Source: a virus
Taxonomy: Duplodnaviria > Heunggongvirae > Uroviricota > Caudoviricetes
Reading direction: 5' to 3' (one strand)
Length of the DNA stretch: 64,000 nt
Virus record (IMG/VR): IMGVR_UViG_3300032155_000026
Span: 12,916-76,915 of that record
Shown here in pieces: positions 4,706 through 29,563 of this stretch. Positions within the stretch are counted from its first letter, which is position 1. Every line of letters starts with the position of its first letter. The notes under the pieces were generated by a model. The model was given only the letters and a program-made list of their open reading frames with translations, was not told the DNA's origin and made no database searches. The translations under genes and the position numbers were made by a program.

Positions 4706-4715
4706 CGGAGGCAGT

Positions 4716-8020: not shown

Positions 8021-8049
8021 TTTGCGCCTGTGGGGCACGGTGGTAGATT
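8021..8049 (+). promoter_or_regulatory. sigma70-like promoter (TTTGCG-N17-TAGATT)
   Basis: Hexamers and spacing upstream of the AAA+ gene; GATTTTG motif just upstream. Confidence 0.35.
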
Positions 8050-8095
8050 CAATTTGTTGGAACTGGATCTACACCGCCACCGCAGGAGGATAAGC

Positions 8096-9667: not shown

Positions 9668-9745
9668 ACGTCGCAAAATGGTTGATCTTCGCGTCACCTT
9701 TTGCTAGGTTTGAAATAGGGGATATCCACCCCAAAACACGCAAGT

Positions 9746-9763
9746 GGTGCAATCGATTGCACC
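9746..9763. repeat. palindrome copy 4 (perfect)
   Basis: 12 nt upstream of ATG 9775; abuts the RBS. Confidence 0.9.
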
Positions 9764-9774
9764 AGGAGGGCAAC

Positions 9775-10683
9775 ATGGCAAAGGGCAAGGAAAAGGCAAA
9801 GGGCAAGGAAAAGGCCAAGGCGAAGGAAAAGGCCAAGGCGAAACAGTCTGCTACCGAGCAGGCCCCGGCCGTGTCCGACGAGCGGGTGCTCGACGGCGAG
9901 CTGCTCGGCCCCGAGTCGTCCGACAGGGCCACGCAGGTTCGCGAGATGATCGAGGGCGCGGTCAACAATATGACCGTCGCGTTCTACGATCTGGCCGTCG
10001 GCCTGTACGAGGCGTACGCGAAGAACTACGCGCAGATCTGGGGCTACCAGAACTTCGAGGCGTACGTGACCGCCCGCCTGGACATGAAGTACCGCCGGGC
10101 GGTCTATCTGGTGGACTGCGGCAAGGCGATCGTGGAGATCGGCATCGACCGCGAGAAGGTTCAGCACATCGGCTGGACGAAGTTCAAGGAGATCTCGGCC
10201 CTGATCCAGAAGAAGCCCGAGGAGGCCGACCGCTACCTCGCGCTGGCCGAGGGCTTTTCCGCCTCCCAGCTGAAGGAGGAGCTCCGCAAGGAGATCGAGA
10301 TCAAGCAGGGGCGGGAGGCCACCGGCGGCGTCATGCGCATGTCGCTGAAGTTCGAGGGCGACGCCATGAACACCGTGGCCGACGCGATCCGCATCGCCAA
10401 CGGCGAGCTGGGCAAGGAAGACGTCCACGCGTCCATCGGCCACATCTGCGCAGAATGGCTGATGGCCAAGAGCGCGGTCGGCGCGGCGTCGAGCCTCGAC
10501 GACTGGCTGGCCTACCTCGAGCGGACCTACGGCGTCCGCCTCCAGCGTGTCACCAGCGAGGAGTCTCTGGAGTCGCTGCTGGAAGGCGGCGAGGCCAGCG
10601 AGGCCGAGGAAGCCAGCATCGAGTCCATGCTCGGCGGCGAGGAAGACAACGACGTGCGCAAGCTGCTCGGCGTGGACGTCTAG
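9775..10683 (+). CDS. acidic protein with N-terminal K/E/A-rich repeat tail
   Basis: ATG 9775 after CCAGGAGGG. MAKGKEKAKGKEKAKAKEKAKAK N-terminus, then globular and acidic C-terminus. Confidence 0.55.
   Translation: MAKGKEKAKGKEKAKAKEKAKAKQSATEQAPAVSDERVLDGELLGPESSDRATQVREMIEGAVNNMTVAFYDLAVGLYEAYAKNYAQIWGYQNFEAYVTARLDMKYRRAVYLVDCGKAIVEIGIDREKVQHIGWTKFKEISALIQKKPEEADRYLALAEGFSASQLKEELRKEIEIKQGREATGGVMRMSLKFEGDAMNTVADAIRIANGELGKEDVHASIGHICAEWLMAKSAVGAASSLDDWLAYLERTYGVRLQRVTSEESLESLLEGGEASEAEEASIESMLGGEEDNDVRKLLGVDV
9778..9843 (+). repeat. 18-bp tandem coding repeat (aagggcaaggaaaaggca-like x4)
   Basis: Direct repeats encoding KGKEKA units. Confidence 0.7.
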
Positions 10684-10748
10684 TCGATCTGAACCAGGGT
10701 GACCGCGGCGGGCACCGCGGTCACCTGACAGGCAGCTGTGAGGAAGTC

Positions 10749-11521: not shown

Positions 11522-12349
11522 ATGTCCGAGAAGAGTGACCCGCGAGTTCTTGAAGTCCGGATGGTGCCGATCACCGAGATCCACCCGAACCCTTGGAATC
11601 CCAACGTCATGAGCGACGAGTTCTTCAACATGTTGACGTCCGACGTCTCCGGTGAGGATGTTGGTTTTGCGCAGCCCATCCTGGTGGCCGCGCAGGACGA
11701 CGGGACGTTCCGTATCATCGACGGAGAGAACCGGTACGAGGCCGCAAGGCTGTCTGGGTTCACGGAGATCCCGTGCATGATCGCGCAGGGGAAGCTGGCG
11801 ACGGACGAGGGCCTGCAGAAGATCCAAACCGTGCGCATGAACAAGCTGCACGGGCAGATGGACAAGCGCAAGTTCGAGGATCTGGTGCGGGGGCTGGCCA
11901 AGGAGTATACGCTGGACCAGCTTGCGGACGCCCTGGTGTTCACTGACCCGACCAAGCTCGAGGCCATGCTGGACGAGACGCGGCGCAACTTGCCGCCTGA
12001 GATGCGCAAGGAGTTCGACAAGGCCAAGGAAGAGATCAAGACGGTGGACGATCTTTCGCAGGTGCTGAATCGGCTGTTCACGCGCTACGGCTCCACGCTG
12101 CCGTACCGCTTCATGGTCCTGGATTTCGGCGGGAAGAAGCATATGTGGATTCGCTTCCCCGACGACAAGGCGTACGGCGCGGTCCTGGAGAAGGCCCGGC
12201 TGTGCCAGACCAGCGGGGTGACGTTCAGCTCCGTGCTCCTCCAGGCGCTGGCACGCGTGGACGCGGAATGGATCGACGAGGCCCTGCCGCACCTGGAGGC
12301 CGCTGAGCTCGAAACGGGCACGGAGGACTCGACAAACGCGGCACTCTAG
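11522..12349 (+). CDS. ParB-like nuclease domain protein
   Basis: ParB N-terminal domain signature PITEIHPNPWNPN; GGAGG RBS. Confidence 0.7.
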   Translation: MSEKSDPRVLEVRMVPITEIHPNPWNPNVMSDEFFNMLTSDVSGEDVGFAQPILVAAQDDGTFRIIDGENRYEAARLSGFTEIPCMIAQGKLATDEGLQKIQTVRMNKLHGQMDKRKFEDLVRGLAKEYTLDQLADALVFTDPTKLEAMLDETRRNLPPEMRKEFDKAKEEIKTVDDLSQVLNRLFTRYGSTLPYRFMVLDFGGKKHMWIRFPDDKAYGAVLEKARLCQTSGVTFSSVLLQALARVDAEWIDEALPHLEAAELETGTEDSTNAAL

Positions 12350-12350
12350 G

Positions 12351-12380
12351 TTGACGTAACCAGTTGGAATCAGTTAAAAT
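12351..12380 (+). promoter_or_regulatory. sigma70-like promoter (TTGACG-N17-TTAAAAT)
   Basis: Consensus-like hexamers 38 nt upstream of ATG 12418. Confidence 0.5.
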
Positions 12381-12417: not shown

Positions 12418-13407
12418 ATGACAGCGGAGGCGAGAGTGTACGGGGCGCGGTCAGCCATTCAGAAAGCCGTCAGGCGGGGCGACGTGTCGCTCGGCCTGGC
12501 GTGCTTTGATTTGCTGAACCGGGACAAGAAACAGCAGGAGTGGCTGCGATTCCGGCTCCCCATCCTGGTGGCCGAGGACTGCTGGACGATGGCCGGCGAT
12601 TTCGCCAAGGCCAAGGCGGCGAGCAAGAACGACCCGCAGGCGCTGCGGCGGTTCATGGCGCGACTGCTCATCGCGAAAAAGAACCAGGACGCCAACTGGC
12701 TCTGGTCGATGGCCAAGGACGGCGCGTATCGCGTGGAGCACCCCGAGTGGCACCTCATCAACGAGATGATCACGCGTGCCGACGAGAACGGCGGGCCCAA
12801 GCGCGTGGCGCTTGACCAGCTTCTCGATCTCGCTGAGCGCGTGACTGGCGTGCGCGACCTGACGGAGTACGAGCGGGGGGCGGTACGCGTTCTGGACGAG
12901 AAGCGTCGTATCGGTGGGCTGGAGAGCGACCCGTACATGTGCCTGACGGCCATCGGGCTGATTCACGCGCGGCGTCTTCCGGAAGCGGGCGTGGCAGCCA
13001 TGCTCGACGAGCAAAAGGCGGTGTACAAGCAGGTGTGCCTCGTGGAGGCCCCCAAATTTCCGGAGTGGTGCTGGGACATGCACACCAGGGCTGGAAAAAT
13101 GGCCATGTCGGCGTTCATGAAGCAGGTGCGTCATCCAGTCATCGGCACGCGGGACCGACTGATCGAGGTCTGGTTCCATCTGGAGAGCGCCGCGATTGGC
13201 ATGAACGTCGTGGCCGAGCGTCTGGACCCGGCTGACGCCGCGCGGCCGCGTTTCGATCAGGAAATCTGGTACGGGCCCGGCAAGACGAACATGGCAAGGA
13301 TCTGCGGGGCCCCGCTCGACGAGATCACGGCCCTGTGGGAAAAAGAGTGGCGACCGAGGCTGTTCGAGCTGGTCCGGTGGGCCATGAAGAAGGAGGGTGT
13401 TGCGTGA
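12418..13407 (+). CDS. hypothetical protein
   Basis: 329-aa ORF with AGGAGGG RBS. Stop overlaps the next start (GTGA). Confidence 0.55.
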   Translation: MTAEARVYGARSAIQKAVRRGDVSLGLACFDLLNRDKKQQEWLRFRLPILVAEDCWTMAGDFAKAKAASKNDPQALRRFMARLLIAKKNQDANWLWSMAKDGAYRVEHPEWHLINEMITRADENGGPKRVALDQLLDLAERVTGVRDLTEYERGAVRVLDEKRRIGGLESDPYMCLTAIGLIHARRLPEAGVAAMLDEQKAVYKQVCLVEAPKFPEWCWDMHTRAGKMAMSAFMKQVRHPVIGTRDRLIEVWFHLESAAIGMNVVAERLDPADAARPRFDQEIWYGPGKTNMARICGAPLDEITALWEKEWRPRLFELVRWAMKKEGVA

Positions 13408-14873
13408 ACGTGTTGCTGCTCCCGCAGCTGTATTCCGCGAGCAATTTATTCGGCGTGAGCATGGTCAACTACCTGTACGACCTCGTGTCGGTCGTGAACG
13501 CCGTACGCGACGATGTACACTGGTGGTTCGGAGTCCCTGAGACGTCGGACGTTGTACGCTGGTCGGCAGAGGATTTTGCCGGGCTGGACCGTGTGACGGT
13601 GTTTCCTGTCTTGCCGAACGGCGGCGCGAACCGCTCCACGGTCAGGGATGGTTTTGCGGGAGTGGATTACCCGTTCTACAGTCGGGAGTGTCTGCGGCTC
13701 TTCGCGGACCTCCCGCGCTACCTACAGTTCGACGTGGTCCTGTCCAACTTCTACACAGCGCAGACGGTCCCGGCGCTGCAGGCGAGCTATCCGCCCGCGT
13801 ACCACTACTTGCTGCCGAAAGTCGGGCAGCCCACGGTCATCAACCTGCTCACGGAGACTTGGCTGGACAAATCGCTGAGTCAGCTGTGTGCGCCGGCTGG
13901 TCGGCAGGCCGTGGTATTCAGTGCCGCGGCCAGCGACATCAACCTGGTGTTGACCCGCGCTGATGCTGACGAGCTCGTCCTGGAGGCTCGCAAACTCCTC
14001 GCACCCGCGCTCGCGCGGTCGCTACGCCCGCTCGTACAGAGGCCGGTGCTGGACAGCGCGAAGGTGCCGGTGTTCGAGAGGCCGGTGGGCAGGCGGACCT
14101 TCTTTCACGGCGGGACGCTGGAAGCCAAGCGCCACGTGCGCGAGCTCGTGGAGCATGTCGGGAGACTCGCAGCAGTGTGCGACGTGCGCCTGCTGAACAC
14201 GACGCAGCTGCAGACTGCCCCTGCGTGGACAGAGGGCAGGCTCTCGTACCTCGAGATGCGCACCGGGTGCAATCGATTGCACTACCTGGAGGCGTTGGCC
14301 GACGGCGATTTTTGCTTGTGCATGGTGGATTACGAGGGCACTGGGCTGGGCTACACGGAAGCCATTCTGTCCGGTATGACGCCGGTGTGGCTGAGGCGTC
14401 CGTGGAACGTCGGGAGGCTTCCTGACGACTACCCGTTCTTCTGCCGTGGGAAGGCCGAGATGCACCAGGCGATGCACTTCTGCGCGACGTCCCCTGAGCG
14501 CGCCAAGGAGCTCGGGAAGCAGGCCGTGGAGTACGTGCGCAAGCTCTATGACAAGGAATCGCAGGGGCTCGAATGGTCGGACCTGCTCGACCAGGCTGCC
14601 GAGATCCGCGCGGGCAAGACGCGGGCCTTGGCGAGTGGCCACTTCATGACCGCGCTTGTGCGAGGAGGGCTGGCGACGCTTCCAGAACGGTTCACGACCA
14701 GAGAGCTGCTGGCCGCCGTAGCCGCACAGTCCGAGAAATTGACAGTGCAGAAGCTGGCGGCACAGGGTGCGCAGGTGCGCGCGTTGGCCATGTCGTTTGG
14801 AGCGTGCCCGCTCACTGGCGACCTTGCCGATGACGGGCTGTGGGTGCGCCAGGGAGGGCAGGCTGATGGATAG
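13404..14873 (+). CDS. putative glycosyltransferase-like protein (paralog of 15588..17030)
   Basis: GTG 13404 after AGGAGGG. C-terminal ...GTGLGYTEAILSGMTPVW...LPDDYPFF region parallels ...LSAGLIVLINKK...LPKDYPWYW in the paralog. Confidence 0.45.
   Translation: MNVLLLPQLYSASNLFGVSMVNYLYDLVSVVNAVRDDVHWWFGVPETSDVVRWSAEDFAGLDRVTVFPVLPNGGANRSTVRDGFAGVDYPFYSRECLRLFADLPRYLQFDVVLSNFYTAQTVPALQASYPPAYHYLLPKVGQPTVINLLTETWLDKSLSQLCAPAGRQAVVFSAAASDINLVLTRADADELVLEARKLLAPALARSLRPLVQRPVLDSAKVPVFERPVGRRTFFHGGTLEAKRHVRELVEHVGRLAAVCDVRLLNTTQLQTAPAWTEGRLSYLEMRTGCNRLHYLEALADGDFCLCMVDYEGTGLGYTEAILSGMTPVWLRRPWNVGRLPDDYPFFCRGKAEMHQAMHFCATSPERAKELGKQAVEYVRKLYDKESQGLEWSDLLDQAAEIRAGKTRALASGHFMTALVRGGLATLPERFTTRELLAAVAAQSEKLTVQKLAAQGAQVRALAMSFGACPLTGDLADDGLWVRQGGQADG
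14266..14283. repeat. palindrome copy 5 (17/18)
   Basis: Inside the glycosyltransferase-like gene. Confidence 0.85.
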
Positions 14874-15591
14874 CCGAGCATTTTTTGCCGAGCGCGTGCG
14901 GCGCTGCGAGGGGGAAGACGTCTTCCACTATTGCGACGAGTGGATGGACCGGTACGCCTGGGAGCTGCGAACGACACTGTTCGACAAGCATGTGGGTGTC
15001 CGTGGCTTAGACGTTGCGGACTTCGGGTGCGGCAGTGGCCGCTGGCTCGAGCGCTGCCTGGCCGCCGGCGCGCGCAGTGTCGTTGGTGTCGAGCAGGGAG
15101 CTGAGATTGCTGCTGTGGCCCGCCGCAGGCTGCCGACAGTTCCTATTTTCGACTGCGGCGCTGACCATCACGCACTCCCTGCCTTCTTAGGGGAGGCCTC
15201 CTGTGACCTGGTCCTGATGATCACGTCGTTCATGTACTGCAACACCGGGCGGTTGCGCATGCTCCGCAACGCCGGGGACGTCTTGCGGAATGGTGGGCGT
15301 CTGGTCATGATCGACTGGTTGTCTGATCATGTTCCGTTGTACCAGCAGGGGCACCCGCACAAGGATATATGGACGCTGCCGACTGTCCTGGAGGAAGTGG
15401 CTGTGGCCGGGTTTCACGTCGTGGCCTCGCACCCCCTGTCGTGGGTGGACACCAGCGTCTTTCACTACCTCGGTAAGAACTGGCTAGCGTATCAGCTGAC
15501 CTGCGCGCTCGAGCGGCTGACGCCGTGGGTGCCACAGTCGTTGGTGAAGTACAGGCTGCTGATCCTCGAGGTCAATCGGAGGGAGTCATGA
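14866..15591 (+). CDS. class I SAM-dependent methyltransferase
   Basis: Motif I LDVADFGCGSGRW. ATG 14866 after GGGAGGG, overlapping the upstream stop. Confidence 0.65.
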   Translation: MDSRAFFAERVRRCEGEDVFHYCDEWMDRYAWELRTTLFDKHVGVRGLDVADFGCGSGRWLERCLAAGARSVVGVEQGAEIAAVARRRLPTVPIFDCGADHHALPAFLGEASCDLVLMITSFMYCNTGRLRMLRNAGDVLRNGGRLVMIDWLSDHVPLYQQGHPHKDIWTLPTVLEEVAVAGFHVVASHPLSWVDTSVFHYLGKNWLAYQLTCALERLTPWVPQSLVKYRLLILEVNRRES

Positions 15592-17030
15592 GATTTTTGG
15601 TTGTCCCAAGTTATGAATTCTCGGCCAATGTTCTCGCTGACTCGTCGTTCACCCTGACGCGCCGGATTCTCGATGCGCTGCCCGACGGCACGCATTCGCT
15701 GTTTGTCGTCCCGAAGCTGGGAGACAAGGGACACAGACGATACGAGGCGCATGGAGAGCTGCCGACGTCTCCCAGGTATTCGTTGATCCCAATCCCCATG
15801 TTCTCTGGAAAGGTTGCCTGCGAGCTTGGTCTGCCCGACGCGCTGCTGGACATGTTCAACCCGGTAGCGGGCCGACGGGTAGACTATGACGCTATATTCA
15901 CGACCAACGCGTCACTGGCTGGCAGGTTGGCACAGATGGGAAGCATGCCGCGTGGTGCGGTAACACGCCCGCCGGTGGTTTACTACGACTACGGGACGCC
16001 GTTCATCGGGACTGACTGCGATCTGGCTTATCTCAAGAGCGGTCCGGTTGATCGGGTGCTGCCTTTTTACGAAGGCCTCGCCGCGTCCGACCTGTGCGTG
16101 TTTTTCAATGACTGGACACGCATGAAGGCCCAGTCACAGTTCCGAAAGATTTTTTCCTCTGCGCTGTGCCGCGATTTCGACAGAAAAGCCAAGGTAATCC
16201 CGCTGATGTTTGCGGACGGGAAACTGCAGACCGCGATTGCTGACGTGACTCGAAGAAAGGAACTGACGGTGTATTGGGGAGGACGGCTCACCGGAACCAA
16301 GAATGTCACGCTGGCGGCTGAGGTGGTCGATTACATGTACTCGTTCGGGCATAAGGTCGAGATGGTGATCACCACGGCTGGCACGTGGGTCGACAAAGGC
16401 AAGCTACGAGTTGGCGAGTGCGCGAAGTTTCCCTCGCAGATAGAACTGCACAAGGGACTGCCGCAGGAGGACGCGTGGCGAATCATGGCCTCGTGCCATA
16501 TCTCGGTGTTCCCGCAGTCGCTGCGTTTCGGGCCCGCGGCCCCCATGGAACAGCTGAGTGCGGGGCTGATCGTGCTTATCAACAAGAAGGATTCGACGTC
16601 GGTCCTTCCCAAGGACTACCCGTGGTATTGGGATGGGGAGGCCGAGTTGCACGCGCTCCTGCGCCACGTCGTGCGCAACTACGAGGAGGAGCGCCAAAAG
16701 CTCCCGAAGTGGCAGTTGTATGCCCGGAGTCTGGCGTTAGACGCGAACATCGGGCGGTTGCACGATGAGGTGTCTGCGCTGGTGGCGAGGAATGACGCCG
16801 TTACGCGCCGTGTCAAGAATCAGCTGTTCGCCGGGCGCGCAGCTGAGGCCGTAGCTGGGCAGTCTTGGCTGCAGTACAGTGACGACCTCCTGGCCAACCA
16901 CGTCATTTTCAAAATGCTCAAGCACATGTTGTATCCAAACATCAAAACTCCTGCGATGTGGCCCGTGTATCAGCATCTGCGCGTTGCCGGGCGCATCGAC
17001 GACACGCTGCCGGTGCCGGTCATCAAGTAG
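15588..17030 (+). CDS. putative glycosyltransferase-like protein (paralog of 13404..14873)
   Basis: ATG 15588 (TCATGA overlap). Paralogous to the upstream gene. Confidence 0.45.
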   Translation: MRFLVVPSYEFSANVLADSSFTLTRRILDALPDGTHSLFVVPKLGDKGHRRYEAHGELPTSPRYSLIPIPMFSGKVACELGLPDALLDMFNPVAGRRVDYDAIFTTNASLAGRLAQMGSMPRGAVTRPPVVYYDYGTPFIGTDCDLAYLKSGPVDRVLPFYEGLAASDLCVFFNDWTRMKAQSQFRKIFSSALCRDFDRKAKVIPLMFADGKLQTAIADVTRRKELTVYWGGRLTGTKNVTLAAEVVDYMYSFGHKVEMVITTAGTWVDKGKLRVGECAKFPSQIELHKGLPQEDAWRIMASCHISVFPQSLRFGPAAPMEQLSAGLIVLINKKDSTSVLPKDYPWYWDGEAELHALLRHVVRNYEEERQKLPKWQLYARSLALDANIGRLHDEVSALVARNDAVTRRVKNQLFAGRAAEAVAGQSWLQYSDDLLANHVIFKMLKHMLYPNIKTPAMWPVYQHLRVAGRIDDTLPVPVIK

Positions 17031-17083
17031 CGACGTTGACGCCCGCGCGTCGTTGTTTCTTCTCATGGTGGAGAGGAGGCCGT

Positions 17084-17470
17084 ATGCCCGGAACCACCGA
17101 GATCCGGCCTTCGTGCAACACGTCGACTGTCGTTGACGGGCGCGGGGGCATTTTCACCTACCTGCTGCCGCTCCCAGTCGTTGAGGCGAACATGGTTTTC
17201 CTCAAGGCCGGGAAGCTGCGTGGGGAGCATTTTCATAAGGAATTCCACGAGTTCTTTTTGGTAGTCGCTGGAAAGGGCCTGTACGAGACCTGGGACGACG
17301 CTGGGCGCAAGACGCAGCGGCTGCTCACCGGTGGGGAGCTGCTGCACGTCAGGCCCGGCACGCCGCATGTGCTGCACGCGATCGAAGACATGACGTGCGT
17401 AGCGATGCTGACCAAGCGCTGGGACGATTGCGCCGAGCCTATTACGGCGTTTGCCGCCGAGGAGCTGTGA
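17084..17470 (+). CDS. cupin-fold protein, sugar 3,4-ketoisomerase-like (FdtA/WxcM-type)
   Basis: Small cupin with GEHFHKEFHEFF...GTPHVLHA metal-site-like His residues. ATG 17084 after GGAGAGGAGG. Confidence 0.5.
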   Translation: MPGTTEIRPSCNTSTVVDGRGGIFTYLLPLPVVEANMVFLKAGKLRGEHFHKEFHEFFLVVAGKGLYETWDDAGRKTQRLLTGGELLHVRPGTPHVLHAIEDMTCVAMLTKRWDDCAEPITAFAAEEL

Positions 17471-18288
17471 TGCTGCTGGCCTACCCAGAAGGAAGATCCT
17501 CTGTTTTCCGCCGCCGTTTCGCCCCCGCTGTCGCCAAGGTTTATGACATGGGGCTGACGGACGCGCCCGACCGCGCAGACCTGGTGTACATCTCCACGCC
17601 GCCGCGCACCCATTTCGCACTCGCGCGTAAGCATCTGGAGGCCGGTAGGCATGTGATCGTCGAGAAACCGGCTGTGTTTTCGCGCAATGAGGCTGAGCTG
17701 CTGATCGAACTGGCCGCACGCAAGGAGCTGGTGCTGGTCGAGAGTTTCCAGTTTCTGCACCATGCGCAGTGGCGGCTCGTCCCGTCCGGGCAGGCAAGCA
17801 GAGCCAGGTTTCTCGCACCGGTGCCGCTCGCCGGGTGGCGTGAGAACCCCCTGGAAGCCGGGGCGCTCGGCGATTTCGGCGTGTATCCGCTGCGGGCCTT
17901 TTTGGACAGGCAGGCGGGCATGGTGGAGACCGTGGAGGTCGACTGCTGCGTCCTCGTTGGCGGCGTGCCTACGCACGTGTCCGGCGTTGCTCGCTGCGGT
18001 GCCGCGGAGTGTGCGTTCACGGTGGGGTATTCGGAGCGCTTCGAGTCGACGTTCGGGATAGACGGGGTGGTCCTGCACAAGGCGTTCAACCCGCAGGCCG
18101 ACGAAGAAGTTTTCGTCCTTGGGAGTTCGGTGCAATCGATTGCATCGGACGGCTGGGTTCTGATGCTGAATCACGTGCTGGACATGTGCGCGTGTGCGGC
18201 GCTTCGCGTGCGGGCCCGGCACGACCTGTTGCGGCAGGCGGATGCGTTTGAGAAGCTGCGCAGGGCAGTCGAGGAGGCCGCGAAATGA
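17470..18288 (+). CDS. Gfo/Idh/MocA-like oxidoreductase, N-terminally short
   Basis: DLVYISTPPRTHFALARKHLEAGRHVIVEKP matches the family core. No GxGxxG Rossmann start. TGATG coupling to the cupin gene. Confidence 0.45.
   Translation: MLLAYPEGRSSVFRRRFAPAVAKVYDMGLTDAPDRADLVYISTPPRTHFALARKHLEAGRHVIVEKPAVFSRNEAELLIELAARKELVLVESFQFLHHAQWRLVPSGQASRARFLAPVPLAGWRENPLEAGALGDFGVYPLRAFLDRQAGMVETVEVDCCVLVGGVPTHVSGVARCGAAECAFTVGYSERFESTFGIDGVVLHKAFNPQADEEVFVLGSSVQSIASDGWVLMLNHVLDMCACAALRVRARHDLLRQADAFEKLRRAVEEAAK
18129..18146. repeat. palindrome copy 6, variant ...GCATc
   Basis: Inside the oxidoreductase gene. Confidence 0.8.
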
Positions 18289-19385
18289 GAGTGCCGTTGT
18301 TCAGGTTGCAGATCGGGGCAAGAACGGAGAAGCTGCTGTTCGACGCCTTCCATTCAGGGAAATGGAGCAACACGGCGATAGAGCACGCTCCCCAGCTCGA
18401 GGCGTGGTGGGCCGCGCAGTGCCAGGCGCCATTCGCGCTTTCGACGAACTCTGGGACCGCGGCCGTGCGCGCCGCGCTGTTCGGAGTAGCTGGGCGTCGT
18501 GGCGGCATGGCGCTGACCACGACCTACTCATGCAGCGCGAACCTCACGCCGCTGCTGGAGATGGGGCTGGTGCCAGCCTGGTGCGACGTTGACCTGCAGT
18601 CGTTCGGAATGACCGGCGGGGCTGTGTTCGAGCGGCTGTCCGAGGGGCCGACGCCGGTGTGCTGCGTCCTCGTGCACATGTATGGGCAGCTGGCCAGGGA
18701 TACCGAAGACATCGTCGGGCTGTGCCGCGAGAAGGGCGTGGTCGTGATCCACGACCTGTCCGAGTGCGTCGGCATGGATGTGGCCAGTTTGGACGGTGAC
18801 GTGTTCATTGCGTCTGTCCGTACGGAGAAGATGCTTGGGGCCGGCGAGGGAGGCCTCGTCGCCTTCCGGAATTTCGACCATTACCGGGCCGCGAAGACGT
18901 TCGTGTGGCGGGGCAAGCCGTCCACGCTGAACTACTGGGTGACGTCCTACGGGGACAACGTCGCCATGACGAACCTGACGGCAGCAATAGCCCTGGGGCA
19001 GATTGACGTGCTGGAAGCCCAGGTCGAAGGCAAGCGACGCGTGGCCGAGATGTACCGCAGCAGCCGACTGGCGCAGTTCGGCGACTTTCAGAAGGTGGGG
19101 GCCGAAGACGTGGCCTGGCTGAACGCGCTGCTGCTGCAGTCAGAAATTGGGCTCACGCCGCAGGATCTCGCCAAGGCCCTCGCTGCGAAGGGGGTGGAGA
19201 CCCGGCCCGCGTTCACGCCGCTGCCGACCGTGCACAGGCTGCAGACTGGCAGCACCCGGTCGGCTGCGTGCGCCGCAGCCAGAGAGATTTTTGAGCGCTG
19301 TCTGATTTTGCCGTCACCGGCGGACCTGACGGCCGAGGAGCTCGAATACGTTGTGGGGTCAATAGAGGAGGTCATGGGACGATGA
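18285..19385 (+). CDS. DegT/DnrJ/EryC1/StrS-family PLP-dependent sugar aminotransferase
   Basis: 366-aa ORF with characteristic N-terminal region and aminotransferase fold signatures. Confidence 0.75.
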   Translation: MRVPLFRLQIGARTEKLLFDAFHSGKWSNTAIEHAPQLEAWWAAQCQAPFALSTNSGTAAVRAALFGVAGRRGGMALTTTYSCSANLTPLLEMGLVPAWCDVDLQSFGMTGGAVFERLSEGPTPVCCVLVHMYGQLARDTEDIVGLCREKGVVVIHDLSECVGMDVASLDGDVFIASVRTEKMLGAGEGGLVAFRNFDHYRAAKTFVWRGKPSTLNYWVTSYGDNVAMTNLTAAIALGQIDVLEAQVEGKRRVAEMYRSSRLAQFGDFQKVGAEDVAWLNALLLQSEIGLTPQDLAKALAAKGVETRPAFTPLPTVHRLQTGSTRSAACAAAREIFERCLILPSPADLTAEELEYVVGSIEEVMGR

Positions 19386-20395
19386 AGAGGGTTCTGATCA
19401 CTGGAGTCAAGGGAATGGCCGGGTCGCACCTGGCCGACTTTCTGGTGGGTGCGAAGCACCGCGAGTGCTTCACCGGAGAGGAGTGTCACTACAAGGTGTT
19501 CGGCAACGATCTACCTGACCGGCCGTGGGATGACAACATCGCCGGGAACAAAGAGCTTGTCTACCAGGACGTGGACATCCGAGACAGGGAAGCCGTGCAC
19601 GCGCTCATGCAGGAGGTGGCCCCGGACTGGGTCTTCCACCTGGCCGCGGAAGCCTTCGTGCCGGACAGCTGGGAGCGACCCCAGGACGTGCTGGAGACCA
19701 ACGTGGTGGGCACGGCGAACGTCCTCGAAGCTGCCCGTCTCCTGCCGAAGAAGCCGATCGTCCAGATCGCGTGCACGAGCGAGGAGTACGGGCTCGTGTA
19801 CCCGGAGGAGACGCCGGTGAATCCGAAGACGCAGCCGTTCCGGCCGATGTCGCCGTACGGGGTGTCCAAGGTGTCCTCTGAACTGCTCGGCGCCCAGTAC
19901 ACGCGCAGTTACGGGCTGGCCACAGTGCTGACCCGGACGTTCAACCACACAGGGCCCAGGCAGAATGACCAGTACGTCACGTCCTCGTTCTGCAAGCAGG
20001 CGTTGCTGGTGGCGGCCGGGCGGCAGGAGGCGGTCCTCCACGGTGATCTGTCCTCTGTGCGCGACTTCACCGACGTGCGGGACATCTGCCGCGCCTACGT
20101 CGAGGCCGTACGCTGGGTGGAGAAGACTGGCGTGGGCGGGCGCGTCTTCCAGATCGGCGGCGCGGACATCCTGTCCGCCGGAACGCTGCTGAAGGCCGTG
20201 TGCAAGAAGACCGGCCTGCTGTTCGGGGTGCACACGAAGCCGGTCCGCGAGCGTATGCGCCCAAGCGACGTCCCGTTGCTGAGCTGCGACAGCTCTGAGT
20301 TCTCCGAGATGACCGGGTGGCAGCCGCTCATCGGTTACAACGAGACGATCGACGACGTCCTGTCCTACTGGCGGGAGAGGTTGGGGCTGTCATGA
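19382..20395 (+). CDS. NDP-sugar 4,6-dehydratase/epimerase (GDP-mannose 4,6-dehydratase-like SDR)
   Basis: ITGVKGMAGSHL Rossmann, TSEEYG, YxxxK (SPYGVSKVSSELL), NHTGPRQN. Confidence 0.8.
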   Translation: MKRVLITGVKGMAGSHLADFLVGAKHRECFTGEECHYKVFGNDLPDRPWDDNIAGNKELVYQDVDIRDREAVHALMQEVAPDWVFHLAAEAFVPDSWERPQDVLETNVVGTANVLEAARLLPKKPIVQIACTSEEYGLVYPEETPVNPKTQPFRPMSPYGVSKVSSELLGAQYTRSYGLATVLTRTFNHTGPRQNDQYVTSSFCKQALLVAAGRQEAVLHGDLSSVRDFTDVRDICRAYVEAVRWVEKTGVGGRVFQIGGADILSAGTLLKAVCKKTGLLFGVHTKPVRERMRPSDVPLLSCDSSEFSEMTGWQPLIGYNETIDDVLSYWRERLGLS

Positions 20396-20616: not shown

Positions 20617-21303
20617 ATGAAGCTGAAATTCCACGGCGAGGAGCTGATCGCCGAGATGCGCAAGATGCTGGTTAATGGTCGGGTGGAGCCCCGGCTCATG
20701 GCCGAGCAGTATCTGTTCCAGCTGCCCGACAAGGTGTTGGCCGACGTGTTCATCATGGAGCACGTGAAGAAGGCGGCGCGGTCGAAGATCCTGCAGGAAG
20801 TCGTCCTGCCGGCAGCCCGGCTGGTCAGCCCATGGTTGGCTGGCGCTGACCCCGTGAGGGTGGCCCAGGTTCTCGAGGCCTTCCTGGATGCGACGGCTGA
20901 GCTGATCGAGTTCGACAAGCCCGAGGATGACGAAGTCGTTCCTGAGAAGCCTGCGTCTCGTGGGCTTCAGGATCTGGATCTCGGGGCGGCGTACCGGGAT
21001 CTGTACGACCGCCGCAGCCGTCTGGTGACCAAGCTGGAGGACGACAACAAGAACGCTCCGCTGATCGTCTACTTCGACAAGATGGACAAGGCGCTGGCCG
21101 GCGTCCAGTCCACGCTGGATTCGATCACGAAGTACCGGCAGGCGTGCGGAGAGCTCGGCGCCAGCAAGGTGGATGTCACCCACCGCTTCGAGTCCGCGAC
21201 GCAGGCCCTGCTGGGCGAGGATGACGACTCCAGGTCTGCCATGCATGACGTGGCGATGGAGTTCGTCGAGTTTCTGGAGAAGCTGGACGGTCACAGGAAG
21301 TAA
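20617..21303 (+). CDS. hypothetical protein
   Basis: 228-aa ORF with K/E/D-rich protein-like composition. The antisense 370-aa ORF is rejected. Confidence 0.55.
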   Translation: MKLKFHGEELIAEMRKMLVNGRVEPRLMAEQYLFQLPDKVLADVFIMEHVKKAARSKILQEVVLPAARLVSPWLAGADPVRVAQVLEAFLDATAELIEFDKPEDDEVVPEKPASRGLQDLDLGAAYRDLYDRRSRLVTKLEDDNKNAPLIVYFDKMDKALAGVQSTLDSITKYRQACGELGASKVDVTHRFESATQALLGEDDDSRSAMHDVAMEFVEFLEKLDGHRK

Positions 21304-21475: not shown

Positions 21476-21850
21476 ATGAGAATCTATCTGGCGTGTCCGT
21501 ATAGTGACCCCGAGGAGGCAGTCCGGGGGAGGCGTTTCGTGCAGGTGTCGATGTGTGCTGCTCAGCTGATGCAGGAGGGGCACAACGTCTTCTCGCCGAT
21601 CACGCACTCGCATTTCATCGCCCAGCTGGGAGACCTCCCGCAGAAGTGGGATTTCTGGCGGCAGATCGACTTCGAGTACATCGAGCGGTTTGCCGAGGAA
21701 GTCTGGGTGCTGATGCTCCCCGGCTGGGAGAAGAGCGTGGGTGTTCGAGCCGAGACGTCTTACGCAGAAGAGCTGGGGATCCCCGTGAAGTTCCTGGACC
21801 CAGAGGCCTTCACGCTGGAATGGCCCGAGCCTGAAGACGACGTTTACTAG
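21476..21850 (+). CDS. nucleoside 2-deoxyribosyltransferase-like (Ndt/DUF1937 superfamily) protein
   Basis: MRIYLACPYS N-terminal signature of the Ndt-like fold. Confidence 0.5.
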   Translation: MRIYLACPYSDPEEAVRGRRFVQVSMCAAQLMQEGHNVFSPITHSHFIAQLGDLPQKWDFWRQIDFEYIERFAEEVWVLMLPGWEKSVGVRAETSYAEELGIPVKFLDPEAFTLEWPEPEDDVY

Positions 21851-25564: not shown

Positions 25565-25951
25565 ATGGTTGAAAAATGGATTCGCCCTGGGCCGACCCTG
25601 GCTGGTTGTGAGACCGTCAGGGTGACCGACGACGTGCCGCCCGCTTGGCTCATTTGCAAGCGGGCGCTTCTGCCGAGCCGTGAGATGCTGCTGAGCTGGG
25701 GCGCGCTCATGATCTGCACCGAGGGGTACAGGTGTCCGAAGAGTGGTTACTGGGTCCCCGAGGGCAGCTTCAGGATGTTCGACGGCCGCGAGATCGGCCT
25801 GGTGACAGAGATGACCGTCGAACAGAGCGGGTTTCCGATCGTGCTCCTCTCCACCACGGTCCGGCGGGTCTTTCTGCGCGTGTCGTGGATCTGCGTGGTG
25901 GTCGACTGGACCGGCTACGGTTTCTGCTTCCCGAGGAGGTTGCGGCTGTGA
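25565..25951 (+). CDS. LPP-motif paralog family member P1
   Basis: ALLPSREMLLSWGALM motif. Ends PRRLRL*, encoded by AGGAGGTTGCGGCTGTGA. Confidence 0.5.
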   Translation: MVEKWIRPGPTLAGCETVRVTDDVPPAWLICKRALLPSREMLLSWGALMICTEGYRCPKSGYWVPEGSFRMFDGREIGLVTEMTVEQSGFPIVLLSTTVRRVFLRVSWICVVVDWTGYGFCFPRRLRL

Positions 25952-29548: not shown

Positions 29549-29563
29549 CTGGAGGTGGCGTTC

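What the first reader, a model, noticed from the sequence alone, without database searches (positions are those of the whole stretch)
13404..20395. Complete NDP-amino-deoxy-sugar pathway plus two glycosyltransferase paralogs and a methyltransferase inside the phage replication region
Eight consecutive, translationally coupled genes. Their predicted products are two paralogous GT-like proteins, a SAM-methyltransferase, a cupin 3,4-ketoisomerase-like protein, a Gfo/Idh/MocA-like oxidoreductase, a DegT-family aminotransferase and a Gmd-like 4,6-dehydratase. This is the enzyme set needed to make and transfer a methylated amino-dideoxy hexose. It sits among nucleotide-metabolism and DNA-processing genes (RNR, ParB-like, Ndt-like, MazG, ThyX), not in a lysogenic-conversion position. 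The target could be DNA bases (a hypermodification system), virion proteins (capsid or tail glycosylation) or host surface glycans. No hydroxymethylase or other base-activating enzyme is recognisable in the window, which weakens but does not exclude the DNA-hypermodification reading.
Basis: inference. Interest (0 to 1): 0.75.

Follow-up and report, generated by a model that had tools for sequence, protein, structure and literature searches.

The report
Phage amino-sugar glycosylation cassette, ParB-linked
A phage operon makes a methylated amino sugar and carries two sugar-attaching enzymes; across a whole lineage of phages it sits beside one particular ParB-like DNA protein and the DNA-packaging genes, so it most likely decorates the phage's own DNA, but this is unproven.

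Summary
The cassette is real. Window 13404-20395 holds seven + strand genes, not eight. The eighth is the upstream gene 12418-13407, which belongs to the same operon. Six of seven junctions overlap by 1-8 nt.

The two ~485-aa proteins are true distant paralogs of one phage-specific GT-B (GT4-like) glycosyltransferase family. The sugar genes fit a GDP-mannose to GDP-4-keto-6-deoxymannose to perosamine-type 4-amino sugar route, plus a SAM methyltransferase, a metal cupin and an N-terminally shortened sugar-ketoreductase-like protein.

The new result is comparative. The same module recurs in more than 12 divergent phage lineages. It comprises a MgsA_C-like helical protein, variable sugar genes, one or two GTs of this family, and a specific ParB-like protein next to the terminase. 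Among 50,697 phage records this ParB subfamily occurs in 22. All 20 of those inspected or independently hit carry this GT family.

The cultured relatives Stenotrophomonas phages DLP3 and DLP5 have restriction-resistant DNA of unknown chemistry. No TET/JBP or ThyA-type base activator was found anywhere.

Best reading, at about 50%: glycosylation of phage DNA with a cationic amino sugar, after replication and before packaging. Rivals are virion-protein glycosylation, host-glycan modification and a small-molecule product.

The parts
11522..12349 (+). ParB-like protein (ParB_N / Noc-Spo0J-type N-terminal domain only; box II reads GENR here and G-H-H-R in most orthologs). It is the specific partner of the GT family.
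   Evidence: Pfam ParB_N 1.6e-10 and phrog_26387 7e-59. PDB hits to Noc and Spo0J cover residues 10-138 only. Orthologs at 26-44% identity lie next to the GT in every lineage examined.
12351..12380 (+). Sigma-70-like promoter match (TTGACG-18-TAAAAT, 10 of 12) in the 68-nt gap before g0. Possible operon start.
   Evidence: This is a consensus match only: 3 were found against 1.6 expected in the scanned region.
12418..13407 (+). g0: an all-alpha 329-aa protein of a MgsA_C-like family with no AAA+ domain. First gene of the cassette.
   Evidence: No Pfam, PHROG or NCBIfam hit. Homologs head the cassette in L001, L020-22, KarBoss, RcZahn and RHph_TM16, and DLP3 gp78 is a member encoded about 7 kb upstream of that phage's sugar genes. 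Shared motifs are QKxxRRG, AEDxG/W, KNQ/R and DxHTxxG. hhalign against the MgsA_C-annotated phage proteins gave E 4e-4, probability 34%. DLP3 gp78 matches both groups. The single-sequence AF2 model was unusable, pLDDT 44.
13404..14873 (+). GT1: GT-B (GT4-like) glycosyltransferase, 'GT1-type' subfamily, with the canonical EX7E motif (YEGTGLGYTEA) and HGGTLEAKR.
   Evidence: Family HMM 6e-43. Motifs. Orthologs in L001, L007, L020/22, Kitkat gp88, L005 and L010.
14866..15591 (+). Class I SAM-dependent methyltransferase (Methyltransf_25/11/12 type). It is not a DNA-MTase family.
   Evidence: Pfam 2e-11 and NCBIfam small-molecule MT models. An MT recurs in the module in most lineages, but orthology across lineages is weak.
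15588..17030 (+). GT2: GT-B glycosyltransferase, 'GT2-type' subfamily (YWGGRLTGTK; only the second Glu of EX7E is kept), with a family-specific C-terminal helical extension.
   Evidence: phrog_30253 1e-25. AF2 pLDDT 72.8. Foldseek PDB E 1e-11 to retaining GT-B enzymes. BFVD top hits are the Arthrobacter phage GTs. The family has 454 cluster representatives at E<=1e-10.
17084..17470 (+). Small metal-binding cupin (HxHx3HE ... PGTPH), WbuC/CapF-cupin-like. Probably a sugar epimerase or isomerase.
   Evidence: Pfam Polysacc_synt_C 6e-7 and Cupin_2 1.6e-6. Cap5F cupin domain 3e-3. 62% identical to the L001 ortholog, the best-conserved protein of the cassette.
17470..18288 (+). Gfo/Idh/MocA-family protein resembling sugar 3-ketoreductase, with a shortened N-terminal dinucleotide-binding region (an alternative GTG start lies at 17467).
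   Evidence: Pfam PF01408 4e-13, profile positions 58-117 only. KijD10 (3rbv) 1.3e-14, aligned from its residue 67. The L001 ortholog is equally short.
18285..19385 (+). DegT/DnrJ/EryC1 PLP-dependent sugar aminotransferase. The nearest solved relatives are GDP-perosamine synthases (C4 amination).
   Evidence: Pfam 6.5e-43. LegC/PseC-like by NCBIfam, below the equivalog cut-offs. PDB 3bn1 and 3dr7, 5e-27.
19382..20395 (+). Extended SDR of the GDP-sugar 4,6-dehydratase / 4-reductase group.
   Evidence: Pfam GDP_Man_Dehyd 3e-63. PDB: Rmd 2pk3 5e-53, GDP-heptose 4,6-dehydratase 7us5 5e-48, Gmd 2e-30.
20617..21303 (+). Context: acidic helical 228-aa protein in the position of the small terminase subunit.
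   Evidence: Position only. Proteins of 187-268 aa occupy the same slot between ParB and TerL in DLP3, JP1, RcTiptonus, RHph_TM16, KarBoss and VH2_2019. No family hit.
21476..21850 (+). Context: DUF1937/DUF4406 (nucleoside 2-deoxyribosyltransferase-like, SLOG) protein.
   Evidence: Pfam 4e-17. Proteins annotated 'DprA-like' lie directly upstream of the GT in JP1 and RcTiptonus.
21862..24006 (+). Context: terminase large subunit.
   Evidence: 31-39% identical to TerL of DLP3, JP1, RcTiptonus, RHph_TM16, KarBoss and L020-22. Weak phrog_2 match.
8030..10683 (+). Context: Cdc48-type AAA ATPase (8030-9667) and a 333-aa unknown protein (9682-10683). They precede the cassette in the nearest relatives.
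   Evidence: Pfam AAA 1.4e-24. Syntenic orthologs in L001, L020, L021 and L022, and a VH2_2019 gp9 ortholog of the 333-aa protein.

Best explanation
The operon 12418-20395, with the adjacent ParB-like gene 11522-12349, is a DNA-glycosylation (hypermodification) module that acts after replication and before packaging.

Inferred steps:
1. The SDR converts host GDP-mannose (or a similar GDP-hexose) to the GDP-4-keto-6-deoxy sugar.
2. The DegT enzyme aminates C4 to give a perosamine-type 4-amino-4,6-dideoxyhexose.
3. The cupin and the ketoreductase-like protein change the stereochemistry, or make a second 6-deoxy sugar from the same intermediate.
4. The SAM methyltransferase methylates the sugar, at N or O.
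5. The two GT-B paralogs transfer the sugar or sugars, either one after the other (a disaccharide) or onto different acceptor contexts.
6. The ParB-like protein, and perhaps the MgsA_C-like g0, present double-stranded phage DNA to the transferases, as ParB-like activators do for phage thymine dioxygenases.

The expected result is a bulky, positively charged adduct that blocks host nucleases.

What is shown: the gene content, the folds and family memberships, the co-inheritance of the GT family with ParB, and the position before the terminase.
What is inferred: the identity of the sugar, the order of the steps, DNA as the acceptor, and which base is modified.
For: 1. Co-inheritance with ParB. 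tblastn with the window ParB (E<=1e-10) finds 22 of 50,697 phage records. Nineteen of them are exactly the records found with GT-family queries. A twentieth, VH2_2019, has a family GT (HMM 8e-68) directly upstream of its ParB. Major-capsid homologs occur in 231 records, so the link is not simply shared ancestry.

2. Mobility of the module. It occurs with different packaging and structural modules: GpA-type TerL in L007, a T4-type portal in L009, and a split TerL in the Arthrobacter phage Kitkat. Hosts range from Actinobacteria to Proteobacteria.

3. Conserved order. The order is [MgsA_C-like]-[variable sugar genes]-GT-(small ORF)-ParB-TerS?-TerL.

4. Published precedent. ParB-like proteins lacking a DNA-binding domain activate phage 5mYOX thymine dioxygenases specifically on dsDNA. 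The neighbourhoods of those enzymes are enriched for GTs (31%), ParBs (27%), terminases (19%), O-methyltransferases and sugar epimerases (PMC13229309).

5. GT4-type GT-B enzymes do glycosylate phage DNA. Examples are GT53 (Pyle et al. 2023) and the arabinosyl-5hoC transferases, whose structural matches are the same as here: 6kih, MshA and PimA.

6. Cultured carriers. Stenotrophomonas phages DLP3 and DLP5 carry the module (gp78, gp96-104). DLP3 DNA resisted all 15 restriction enzymes tested, including SmaI and ApaI, whose sites contain only G and C (PMC7326821, PMC8228603).

7. Chemistry. All variants of the sugar part would yield a free or methylated amine: DegT/SDR amino sugars, or a PIG-L deacetylase beside a BshA/MshA-like GT. 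That fits known cationic DNA hypermodifications. This point is inference.

8. DLP3 capsid. Its major capsid protein was covered 92% by unmodified peptides, which argues mildly against heavy capsid glycosylation.
Against: 1. No base-activating enzyme was found, neither a ThyA-type hydroxymethylase or hydroxylase nor a TET/JBP 5mYOX. This holds for the window, for the neighbourhoods of eight related loci, and for the proteins of unknown function in the complete genomes of DLP3 and Kitkat. Every known DNA O-glycosylation needs such a hydroxyl. Only Pfam was used, and divergent 5mYOXs are known to escape it.

2. ParB-like genes next to terminase genes are common in phages generally, so part of the linkage could reflect conserved synteny of a packaging block.

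3. The restriction resistance of DLP3 and DLP5 is uncharacterised. No knockout links it to this module. The same laboratory reports resistance for most of its Stenotrophomonas phages, so it is weak evidence.

4. The methyltransferase and sugar enzymes are of types equally at home in protein or polysaccharide glycosylation.

5. The GTs are not consistently basic (pI 6.4 and 9.1; family median 6.8).

6. Only 64 kb of the contig was visible.
Confidence: 0.5

Rival explanations
1. Virion-protein glycosylation. The GT pair decorates capsid, tail-tube or fibre proteins with the methylated amino sugar late in infection. This would shield the particle or alter adsorption, as reported for some mycobacteriophages and for chloroviruses.
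For: - The cassette is expressed with the late and packaging genes, directly before TerL.
- 'GTs plus a methyltransferase' is the gene set known from mycobacteriophage virion glycosylation (my own knowledge, not re-read here).
- Kitkat has a further GT inside its tail-gene block.
- Structural neighbours in BFVD include giant-virus GTs.
- Sugar diversification between relatives would also fit immune or receptor pressure on virions.
Against: - It does not explain the strict co-inheritance with a ParB-like and a MgsA_C-like protein.
- The cassette is about 30 kb from the structural genes in this window.
- The DLP3 major capsid protein was covered 92% by unmodified peptides.
- The known mycobacteriophage enzymes are, to my knowledge, GT-A rather than this GT-B family.
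Confidence: 0.2
2. Host-envelope glycan modification. The enzymes add a perosamine-type sugar to, or remodel, host O-antigen, capsule or cell-wall polymers. This would exclude superinfecting phages or stop progeny from re-adsorbing to debris. It is the reading proposed for the DLP3 GT by its authors.
For: - Perosamine and methylated 6-deoxy sugars are typical O-antigen constituents (established knowledge).
- The nearest solved relatives of the DegT and SDR proteins are O-antigen and capsule enzymes.
- DLP3 is temperate, causes lysogenic conversion, and its authors suggested LPS modification.
Against: - The module is in the lytic late operon, with no composition anomaly and no moron-like isolation.
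- It is also present in phages described as virulent (the Rhodobacter RcF cluster) and in Gram-positive Arthrobacter phages whose envelopes are quite different. Yet the GT/ParB core is conserved.
- The GTs are soluble, and no flippase, Wzy or Gtr-type membrane partners are present.
- It gives no role to the ParB-like and MgsA_C-like partners.
Confidence: 0.15
3. Small-molecule product. The cassette makes a soluble amino-glycoside (mycothiol/bacillithiol-like or aminoglycoside-like). The enzyme logic (a GT4 like BshA/MshA/BtrM, a PIG-L deacetylase, DegT aminotransferases, a Gfo-type oxidoreductase, an N-methyltransferase, and a radical SAM enzyme in L009) mirrors those pathways.
For: - Foldseek top hits include MshA, and DLP5's GT was annotated as a BshA-like synthase.
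- PIG-L deacetylases sit beside the GT in DLP3, RcZahn, KarBoss and VH2_2019.
- A radical SAM gene is present in L009.
Against: - No enzyme for an aglycone (inositol, malate or 2-deoxystreptamine) is present.
- It does not explain the ParB, MgsA_C and terminase linkage.
- The window's own version has no deacetylase.
Confidence: 0.07

Closest known systems
Gene block gp78 and gp96-gp104 of Stenotrophomonas phages DLP3, DLP5 and Summit (Delepquintavirus), with the equivalent blocks of Rhodobacter phage RcZahn, Vibrio phages KarBoss and VH2_2019, and Rhizobium phage RHph_TM16
   Same: - Same GT family: DLP3 gp102 scores 3e-54 against the family HMM.
- Orthologous ParB (37% identity), TerL (33%) and major capsid protein (48%).
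- A MgsA_C-like protein, an SDR, a DegT and a class I MT in the same order ahead of ParB-TerS-TerL.
   Different: - Those phages have a single GT, with an EX7E motif of its own type, and a PIG-L deacetylase.
- The window has two GT paralogs plus a cupin and a ketoreductase-like protein, has no deacetylase, and has ParB moved to the upstream side.
- None of these blocks has been studied functionally. In DLP3 the MT was interpreted as Erm and the GT as an LPS modifier.
Phage post-replicative DNA hypermodification clusters built around 5mYOX (TET/JBP) dioxygenases, with ParB-like activators and GTs (Burke 2021; Pyle 2023 bioRxiv 10.1101/2023.12.21.572611; O'Toole 2026 PMC13229309)
   Same: - A ParB-like protein with the N-terminal nucleotide-binding-type domain and no detectable HTH.
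- One or two GTs, an O-methyltransferase-type enzyme and sugar-nucleotide enzymes.
- Position beside the terminase.
   Different: - No 5mYOX and no C5-MTase were found here or in relatives.
- The ParB box II is GENR or GHHR rather than GERR.
- I could not test homology of this ParB to the published 5mYOX-associated ParBs, because no sequences were available.
Pre-replicative pyrimidine glycosylation: T4 glucosyl-5hmC (alpha- and beta-GT) and arabinosyl-5-hydroxycytosine of RB69 and Acinetobacter phage DLP3 (Lee 2025/2026, PMC13326640)
   Same: - Several GT-B transferases per phage and phage-encoded NDP-sugar synthesis.
- The same structural neighbours for the GTs: 6kih, MshA and PimA.
   Different: - Those systems depend on a ThyA-family dCMP hydroxymethylase or hydroxylase. 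None is present in the window, in DLP3 or in Kitkat. Only a ThyX is present here.
- They have no ParB partner.
GDP-perosamine pathway of O-antigen synthesis (Gmd plus Per/RfbE)
   Same: An SDR closest to GDP-sugar 4,6-dehydratases and 4-reductases, and a DegT closest to GDP-perosamine synthases.
   Different: - Scores are far below the NCBIfam equivalog cut-offs.
- No N-acyltransferase is present. A methyltransferase is present instead.
- The context is a phage rather than a polysaccharide locus.
Mycobacteriophage virion O-glycosylation (Che8, Corndog, Myrna; my own knowledge)
   Same: Phage-encoded GTs plus a methyltransferase, used in the lytic cycle.
   Different: A different GT fold and family (to my knowledge), no ParB or MgsA_C partners, and no amino-sugar pathway.

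Membership tests
GT-B fold glycosyltransferase, GT4-like (retaining) | Two Rossmann-like domains with the donor site in the C-terminal domain | tested here: met
   GT2 AF2 model (pLDDT 72.8, pTM 0.74) has alternating beta-alpha elements in two halves. Foldseek gives E 1e-11 to 1e-9 and TM 0.55-0.73 to MshA, PimA, glycogen synthase and sucrose-phosphate synthase. GT1 is included by homology (family HMM 6e-43). It was not modelled.
GT-B fold glycosyltransferase, GT4-like (retaining) | EX7E motif and G-R/K phosphate-binding motif | tested here: met
   GT1 has YEGTGLGYTEA and HGGTLEAKR. GT2 has GGRLTGTK but keeps only the second Glu (LRFGPAAPMEQ). The motif is therefore fully met for GT1 and partly met for GT2.
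GT-B fold glycosyltransferase, GT4-like (retaining) | Pfam PF00534 Glycos_transf_1 above the gathering score | tested here: not met
   GT2 scores 18.7 bits against a 26.4-bit cut-off. GT1 has no hit. This is a divergent, phage-specific family with 454 representatives at E<=1e-10.
GDP-mannose 4,6-dehydratase (Gmd) | Equivalog-level sequence match | tested here: not met
   TIGR01472 scores 107.6 bits against a 415-bit cut-off. LegB-like and RmlB models score higher but are also below their cut-offs. The best solved relatives are Rmd and GDP-heptose 4,6-dehydratase. The protein belongs to the GDP-sugar SDR group. Whether it is a dehydratase or a reductase is not decided.
GDP-perosamine synthase-type C4 aminotransferase | DegT/DnrJ/EryC1 fold and closest relatives acting at C4 of a 4-keto-6-deoxy sugar | tested here: met
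   PF01041 scores 147.7 bits against a 19.8-bit cut-off. The best PDB matches are 3bn1 and 3dr7, 5e-27. Regiochemistry and the nucleotide carrier are inferred, not tested.
   FdtA scores 20.9 bits against a 23-bit cut-off. Polysacc_synt_C (30.0 against 28.7) and Cupin_2 (28.2 against 27.2) pass. A metal-ligand motif (His/Glu) is present, unlike the metal-independent FdtA (sequence).
Gfo/Idh/MocA oxidoreductase | N-terminal Rossmann fold with a GxGxxG dinucleotide-binding motif | tested here: not met
   Only profile positions 58-117 of 120 match. KijD10 aligns from its residue 67. The N-terminus reads MLLAYPEGRSSVF, with no GxGxxG. The L001 ortholog is equally short.
5mYOX/ParB-type post-replicative DNA hypermodification cluster | A TET/JBP (PF12851) dioxygenase in the cluster | tested here: not met
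   No such Pfam hit among 92 unknown proteins of the window and six related loci, among 65 unknown proteins of DLP3 and Kitkat, or among the cassette genes themselves. Divergent members can escape Pfam (PMC13229309).
5mYOX/ParB-type post-replicative DNA hypermodification cluster | A ParB-like partner with an N-terminal NBD and no classical DNA-binding HTH, with GT(s) and a terminase nearby | tested here: met
   ParB_N domain at residues 11-89. PDB homology ends by residue ~138, and no HTH family is detected. GTs and TerL lie within 10 kb. Orthology to the published ParBs was not testable.
ThyA-dependent pre-replicative pyrimidine glycosylation (T4, RB69) | A ThyA-family dCMP/dUMP hydroxymethylase or hydroxylase | tested here: not met
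   The window has only ThyX (PF02511). DLP3's 'thymidylate synthase' is a phosphatase. No ThyA was found in the DLP3 or Kitkat unknowns. The rest of this phage's genome was not visible.
Chromosome-segregation ParB | GERR arginine box, central HTH and parS-type binding | tested here: not met
   Box II is GENR here and G(G/S)HHR in orthologs. No HTH was detected. parS binding is not testable.
MgsA/RarA C-terminal domain (PF12002) for g0 | A significant profile match | tested here: inconclusive
   g0 itself has no Pfam hit. Syntenic relatives do: Kitkat gp80 1e-8, DLP3 gp78 1.6e-3, and L005, L008 and L010 from the precomputed annotation. hhalign of g0 against that group gave E 4e-4, probability 34%.

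The most novel reading that the evidence does not exclude
A ParB-partnered pair of GT-B transferases puts a cationic, methylated perosamine-type amino sugar on phage DNA without any ThyA- or TET-type hydroxylating enzyme. That would mean either direct glycosylation of a canonical base, or use of an unrecognised base activator (candidates: the MgsA_C-like protein, the metal cupin, or the PPDK-like and phosphatase genes of relatives). This would be a new chemical class of DNA hypermodification. It would be shared by a widespread lineage of roughly 58-110-kb siphoviruses of Proteobacteria and Actinobacteria, and it would explain the restriction-resistant DNA of DLP3 and DLP5.
Probability: 0.25. 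Interest if true: 0.9.

Novelty: new variant of a known kind. Interest (0 to 1): 0.7.

Why it matters
If the module modifies DNA, it adds amino sugars to the chemistry of natural DNA. It also gives a second kind of enzyme, after the thymine dioxygenases, that works with a ParB-like partner on double-stranded DNA. And it raises the question of how a sugar is attached with no known hydroxylated base.

The practical consequences are these:
- The carriers include phage-therapy candidates against Stenotrophomonas maltophilia, whose restriction-resistant DNA is still unexplained.
- Such DNA resists restriction enzymes and possibly CRISPR nucleases, and it can disturb sequencing.
- The GT/ParB pair could become a tool for labelling DNA.

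The question is directly testable because several carriers are in culture: DLP3, DLP5, Summit, RcZahn, RcTiptonus, JP1, KarBoss, VH2_2019 and Kitkat.

If the target turns out to be the virion or the host envelope, the finding is still a well-defined, mobile glycosylation module, but a much more ordinary one.

Tried and rejected
- Near-identity DNA search of the cassette against 50,697 phage records found nothing.
- Single-protein scans of IMG/VR with GT1 and GT2 found nothing. The profile scans gave only 4 viral and 3 metagenome loci, which overlap one another.
- I could not recover the rest of the source contig. Exact-protein look-ups and an exact 43-mer scan of the metagenome collection all failed. 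So 64 kb is all that could be read, and the idea that the 217-kb contig is a dimer of a ~108-kb genome stays untested.
- g0 had no word-sharing homologs and no PDB relatives. The single-sequence model was unusable, pLDDT 44.
- The search for a base activator gave no TET/JBP and no ThyA. One weak Thy1 hit among the DLP3 and Kitkat unknowns (7e-7) and one weak DUF1599 hit (1.7e-3) could not be assigned to a protein.
- The isoelectric point of the GTs does not discriminate between DNA and other acceptors.
- The methyltransferases of the different lineages could not be shown to be orthologous.
- Rejected: that the DLP3 'thymidylate synthase' could supply a hydroxymethyl pyrimidine. It is a dual-specificity phosphatase.
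- Rejected: that the MT is an Erm rRNA methylase. The published evidence is a whole-lysogen MIC shift.
- Rejected: that the ParB merely serves plasmid-prophage partition. It is present in phages described as virulent, and its box II differs from that of segregation ParBs.
- The literature searches found no paper that characterises this module.

Full report
**What is in the window**

The window is a 63% G+C, almost entirely + strand phage segment. In order it encodes:
- a class II ribonucleotide reductase with an intein, a sigma-70-like factor, a phosphoesterase, RuvC and a Cdc48-type AAA ATPase;
- two unknown genes, then a ParB-like gene, then the cassette;
- a putative small terminase, a DUF1937 protein and the large terminase;
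- many small ORFs, then MazG and ThyX;
- from 49 kb on, protease, major capsid, tape measure and a J-like tail fibre of a siphovirus.

There is no near-identical DNA in 50,697 phage records. The protein database puts the source on a 217,215-bp JGI contig, which I could not retrieve.

**Check of the observation**

Inside 13404-20395 there are seven genes, not eight:

| Gene | Coordinates | Length |
|---|---|---|
| GT1 | 13404-14873 | 489 aa |
| Methyltransferase (MT) | 14866-15591 | 241 aa |
| GT2 | 15588-17030 | 480 aa |
| Cupin | 17084-17470 | 128 aa |
| Gfo/Idh/MocA-like | 17470-18288 | 272 aa |
| DegT aminotransferase | 18285-19385 | 366 aa |
| SDR | 19382-20395 | 337 aa |

All seven have GC3 of 0.74-0.88 and GGAGG-type ribosome-binding sites. 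Six junctions overlap by 1-8 nt. Only GT2 to cupin has a gap, of 53 nt.

The upstream gene 12418-13407 (g0, 329 aa) overlaps the GT1 start. It follows a 68-nt gap that contains the best promoter-like match in the region. It is conserved together with the cassette (see below). The operon is therefore 12418-20395, eight genes.

**The two glycosyltransferases**

Pairwise BLAST barely links them (E 5e-4 over 43 residues), and Pfam does not recognise GT1 at all. An exhaustive profile search seeded from GT2 and its ten detectable homologs found a family of ~450-530-aa proteins, with 454 cluster representatives at E<=1e-10. A local HMM of 140 full-length members scores GT2 at 1e-120 and GT1 at 6e-43. 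They are real, old paralogs.

The AlphaFold model of GT2 (pLDDT 72.8) is a GT-B fold with a helical C-terminal extension. Its best solved matches are retaining GT4/GT5/GT20 enzymes: MshA, PimA, sucrose-phosphate synthase and glycogen synthase.

Two subfamilies can be told apart. GT1-type proteins keep the canonical EX7E motif. GT2-type proteins have GGR(L/F)xxxK and only the second glutamate.

**The sugar genes**

- SDR. Its closest solved relatives are GDP-6-deoxy-D-lyxo-4-hexulose reductase (5e-53), GDP-heptose 4,6-dehydratase (5e-48) and GDP-mannose 4,6-dehydratases.
- DegT. Its closest solved relatives are GDP-perosamine synthases (5e-27). The NCBIfam best models are LegB/LegC-like, but all score far below their equivalog cut-offs.
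- Most economical route (inference): host GDP-mannose, then GDP-4-keto-6-deoxymannose, then a 4-amino-4,6-dideoxyhexose. No nucleotidyltransferase is encoded, so 'complete' holds only relative to a host GDP-hexose pool.
- Cupin. It is a metal-ligand cupin of the WbuC/CapF type. FdtA falls below its cut-off.
- Gfo-like protein. It resembles the sugar 3-ketoreductase KijD10 but lacks the first ~60 residues, including GxGxxG. Its ortholog is equally short.
- MT. It is a small-molecule-type class I enzyme, not a DNA MTase family.

**Comparative genomics, the main new result**

The nearest relatives are metagenomic loci with 35-62% amino-acid identity to the window's proteins and 44-49% G+C in their own DNA. 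They keep AAA, the 333-aa protein, g0, GT1, GT2, DegT, SDR, ParB and TerL. The MT, cupin and Gfo genes are variably present (L001, L020-22).

More distant lineages keep a recognisable core:

| Lineage | Module content |
|---|---|
| Arthrobacter phages Kitkat and KellEzio | gp80 MgsA_C-like, gp88 GT1-type, gp93 GT2-type, gp95 ParB, gp100 MT; no sugar genes |
| L005, L010 | the same arrangement |
| L007 | g0-like, GT1, GT2, MT, DegT, SDR, ParB, HTH, GpA-type TerL |
| L008 | sugar nucleotidyltransferase, three family GTs, MgsA_C, ParB |
| L009 | DegT, GT, MT, SDR, radical SAM, GT, ParB, next to a T4-type portal |

Cultured Proteobacteria phages carry it too:

| Phage(s) | Module content |
|---|---|
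| Stenotrophomonas DLP3, DLP5, Summit | gp78 MgsA_C-like about 7 kb upstream; then PIG-L deacetylase, SDR, DegT, MT, GT, ParB, TerL |
| Rhodobacter RcZahn | MgsA_C-like ('AAA-ATPase'), deacetylase, SDR, DegT, MT, GT at the right end; ParB is gene 1 at the left end of the linear record |
| Vibrio KarBoss | g0-like, unknown 217 aa, SDR, DegT, unknown 228 aa, GT, ParB, unknown 266 aa, TerL (all annotated 'hypothetical protein'; roles from homology) |
| Vibrio VH2_2019 | homolog of the window's 333-aa protein, PIG-L deacetylase, MT, WbqC-like, GT, ParB, unknown 268 aa, TerL; no g0, SDR or DegT homolog detected |
| Rhizobium RHph_TM16 | weak g0-like (HMM 8e-3), SDR, DegT, GT, ParB, TerL; Y1_11 was found by tblastn only and not inspected |
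| Rhodobacter RcTiptonus group, Agrobacterium JP1 | DprA-like protein, GT, ParB, TerL |

The decisive statistic concerns ParB. tblastn with the window's ParB at E<=1e-10 finds only 22 of 50,697 phage records. Nineteen of them are exactly the union of the records found with GT-family queries. A twentieth has a family GT adjacent to its ParB. The other two are close Vibrio relatives that I did not open.

By contrast, homologs of the major capsid protein occur in 231 records. The module also sits in phages with unrelated terminase and portal types. This ParB subfamily and this GT family are therefore inherited as a unit.

g0 belongs to a helical family that includes the proteins annotated MgsA_C or 'AAA-ATPase' in these phages. 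It usually heads the cassette. The evidence for this is moderate.

**What this says about the target**

Fold alone cannot decide. GT4-type GT-B enzymes glycosylate DNA in some phages, and proteins, lipids and small molecules elsewhere. Context can say more.

O'Toole et al. (PMC13229309) showed that ParB-like proteins with the N-terminal domain and a dimerisation domain, but no DNA-binding domain, are required activators of phage thymine dioxygenases specifically on dsDNA. They also showed that GTs, ParBs, terminases, O-methyltransferases and sugar epimerases are the commonest neighbours of such enzymes. The present module has all of these neighbours but not the dioxygenase.

Its cultured carriers DLP3 and DLP5 have DNA resistant to all 15 restriction enzymes tested, with the modification 'currently undetermined' (PMC7326821, PMC8228603). 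SmaI and ApaI have sites made only of G and C, and both were blocked. A modification of T alone would therefore not explain the result.

The sugar part varies between relatives: none, DegT plus SDR, an added deacetylase, or an added second GT with cupin and reductase. The GT/ParB core stays constant. Every variant would leave an amine on the product, which matches the cationic character of many known DNA hypermodifications. This last point is inference.

**What speaks against DNA**

I found no ThyA-type or TET/JBP-type enzyme in any of the following:
- the cassette and the rest of the window;
- the neighbourhoods of six metagenomic relatives;
- the proteins of unknown function in the complete genomes of DLP3 and Kitkat. 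DLP3's annotated 'thymidylate synthase' is a phosphatase.

All established DNA O-glycosylations need such a hydroxyl. Pfam can miss divergent dioxygenases, and 64 kb is all I could read of this phage. Even so, the absence across complete relatives is a real gap.

The restriction data are uncontrolled with respect to this module. The same laboratory reports resistance for most of its phages. ParB-like genes beside terminases are also common in phages in general.

**Verdict on mechanism**

| Reading | Probability |
|---|---|
| Glycosylation of phage DNA by the GT pair with a methylated perosamine-type amino sugar, after replication and before packaging, helped by the ParB-like and possibly the MgsA_C-like protein | about 0.5 |
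| Virion-protein glycosylation | about 0.2 |
| Host-envelope glycan modification | about 0.15 |
| Soluble amino-glycoside product | about 0.07 |

- Virion glycosylation has late expression in its favour. It leaves the ParB and MgsA_C partners unexplained, and the DLP3 capsid protein was 92% covered by unmodified peptides.
- Host-envelope modification was proposed by the authors of the DLP3 paper. It fits poorly with a lytic-operon position and with conservation from Arthrobacter to Vibrio phages.
- A soluble product is suggested by the BshA/MshA-plus-PIG-L logic.

Within the DNA reading, the version in which no classical base activator exists, which would be new chemistry, has about 0.25 absolute probability.

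**Novelty**

I found no paper that describes this module. Its parts have been annotated piecemeal: 'Erm', 'BshA-like', 'Noc', 'AAA-ATPase'.

It resembles the 5mYOX/ParB/GT clusters but fails their defining feature. I therefore file it as a new variant of a known kind (phage glycosylation and hypermodification gene clusters), not as a member of that family.

Noticed in passing
window 1831-4689: The class II ribonucleotide reductase (952 aa) carries a LAGLIDADG/Hom_end-type insert at about residues 506-584. This is probably an intein with a homing endonuclease. TerL of relative L009 and the RcTiptonus TerL (1046 aa) also look intein-bearing.
   Followed up: no
window 10749-11390: A real 213-aa gene (GC3 0.77, helical, no family hit) is hidden in the tail of a 548-aa ORF (9744-11390). 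The first two-thirds of that ORF is the wrong frame of the gene 9682-10683.
   Followed up: partly
window 25565-25951, 26363-26776, 29099-29548, 29555-30013: Four small paralogous proteins share an 'LLSWG'-like core and a C-terminal RRLRV, RRLRL or RLLRL motif. They are interspersed with ORFs of unknown function between TerL and the MazG/ThyX region.
   Followed up: no
whole window / source contig: The source contig is 217,215 bp. All relatives with known genome size are 58-110 kb, and the closest IMG/VR relative is a 98-kb contig. The contig may be a head-to-tail dimer of a ~108-kb genome. This could not be tested because the contig is absent from the searchable collections.
   Followed up: partly
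L012 35757-36530 (Stenotrophomonas phage DLP3, MT110073 gene 141) and L012 12296-12976 (gene 99): There are annotation problems in the public record. 'Thymidylate synthase' gp141 is a dual-specificity phosphatase by Pfam. 'Erm' gp99 is the cassette's class I methyltransferase, it had no Pfam hit, and its erythromycin-resistance role rests on a whole-lysogen MIC shift.
   Followed up: yes
L012 31123-33066; L016 14198-16309; L019 12563-14567: A pyruvate-phosphate-dikinase-like gene recurs near the packaging genes in DLP3, RHph_TM16 and VH2_2019. In DLP3 and RHph_TM16 a tyrosine/dual-specificity phosphatase lies nearby. No homolog is in this window. It is a possible further component of whatever these phages do to their DNA.
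   Followed up: no
window 21476-21850; L018 983-1399; L015 8182-8571: Small SLOG-type proteins lie beside the cassette. Here it is DUF1937 (nucleoside 2-deoxyribosyltransferase-like). In JP1 and RcTiptonus it is a protein annotated 'DprA-like', directly upstream of the GT. I could not show that these are homologous to each other.
   Followed up: partly
window 40453-41307: An SPFH/band-7-type lipoprotein (phrog_200, 2.7e-75) with a lipobox-like N-terminus has very high GC3 (0.92), which suggests strong expression. DLP3 gp69 also has a Band_7 domain.
   Followed up: no
L011 15621-16721 (Arthrobacter phage Kitkat gene 29): A third, unrelated glycosyltransferase sits inside the tail-gene block of Kitkat, between the tail terminator and the tail assembly chaperones. 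It is probably the member that matched Glyco_trans_1_4 and 'GT4-conflict' in the pooled Pfam scan.
   Followed up: no
window 4623-5483: A phage-encoded sigma-70 family protein (regions 4 and 4.2, 6e-15) lies between the RNR and a metallophosphoesterase.
   Followed up: no
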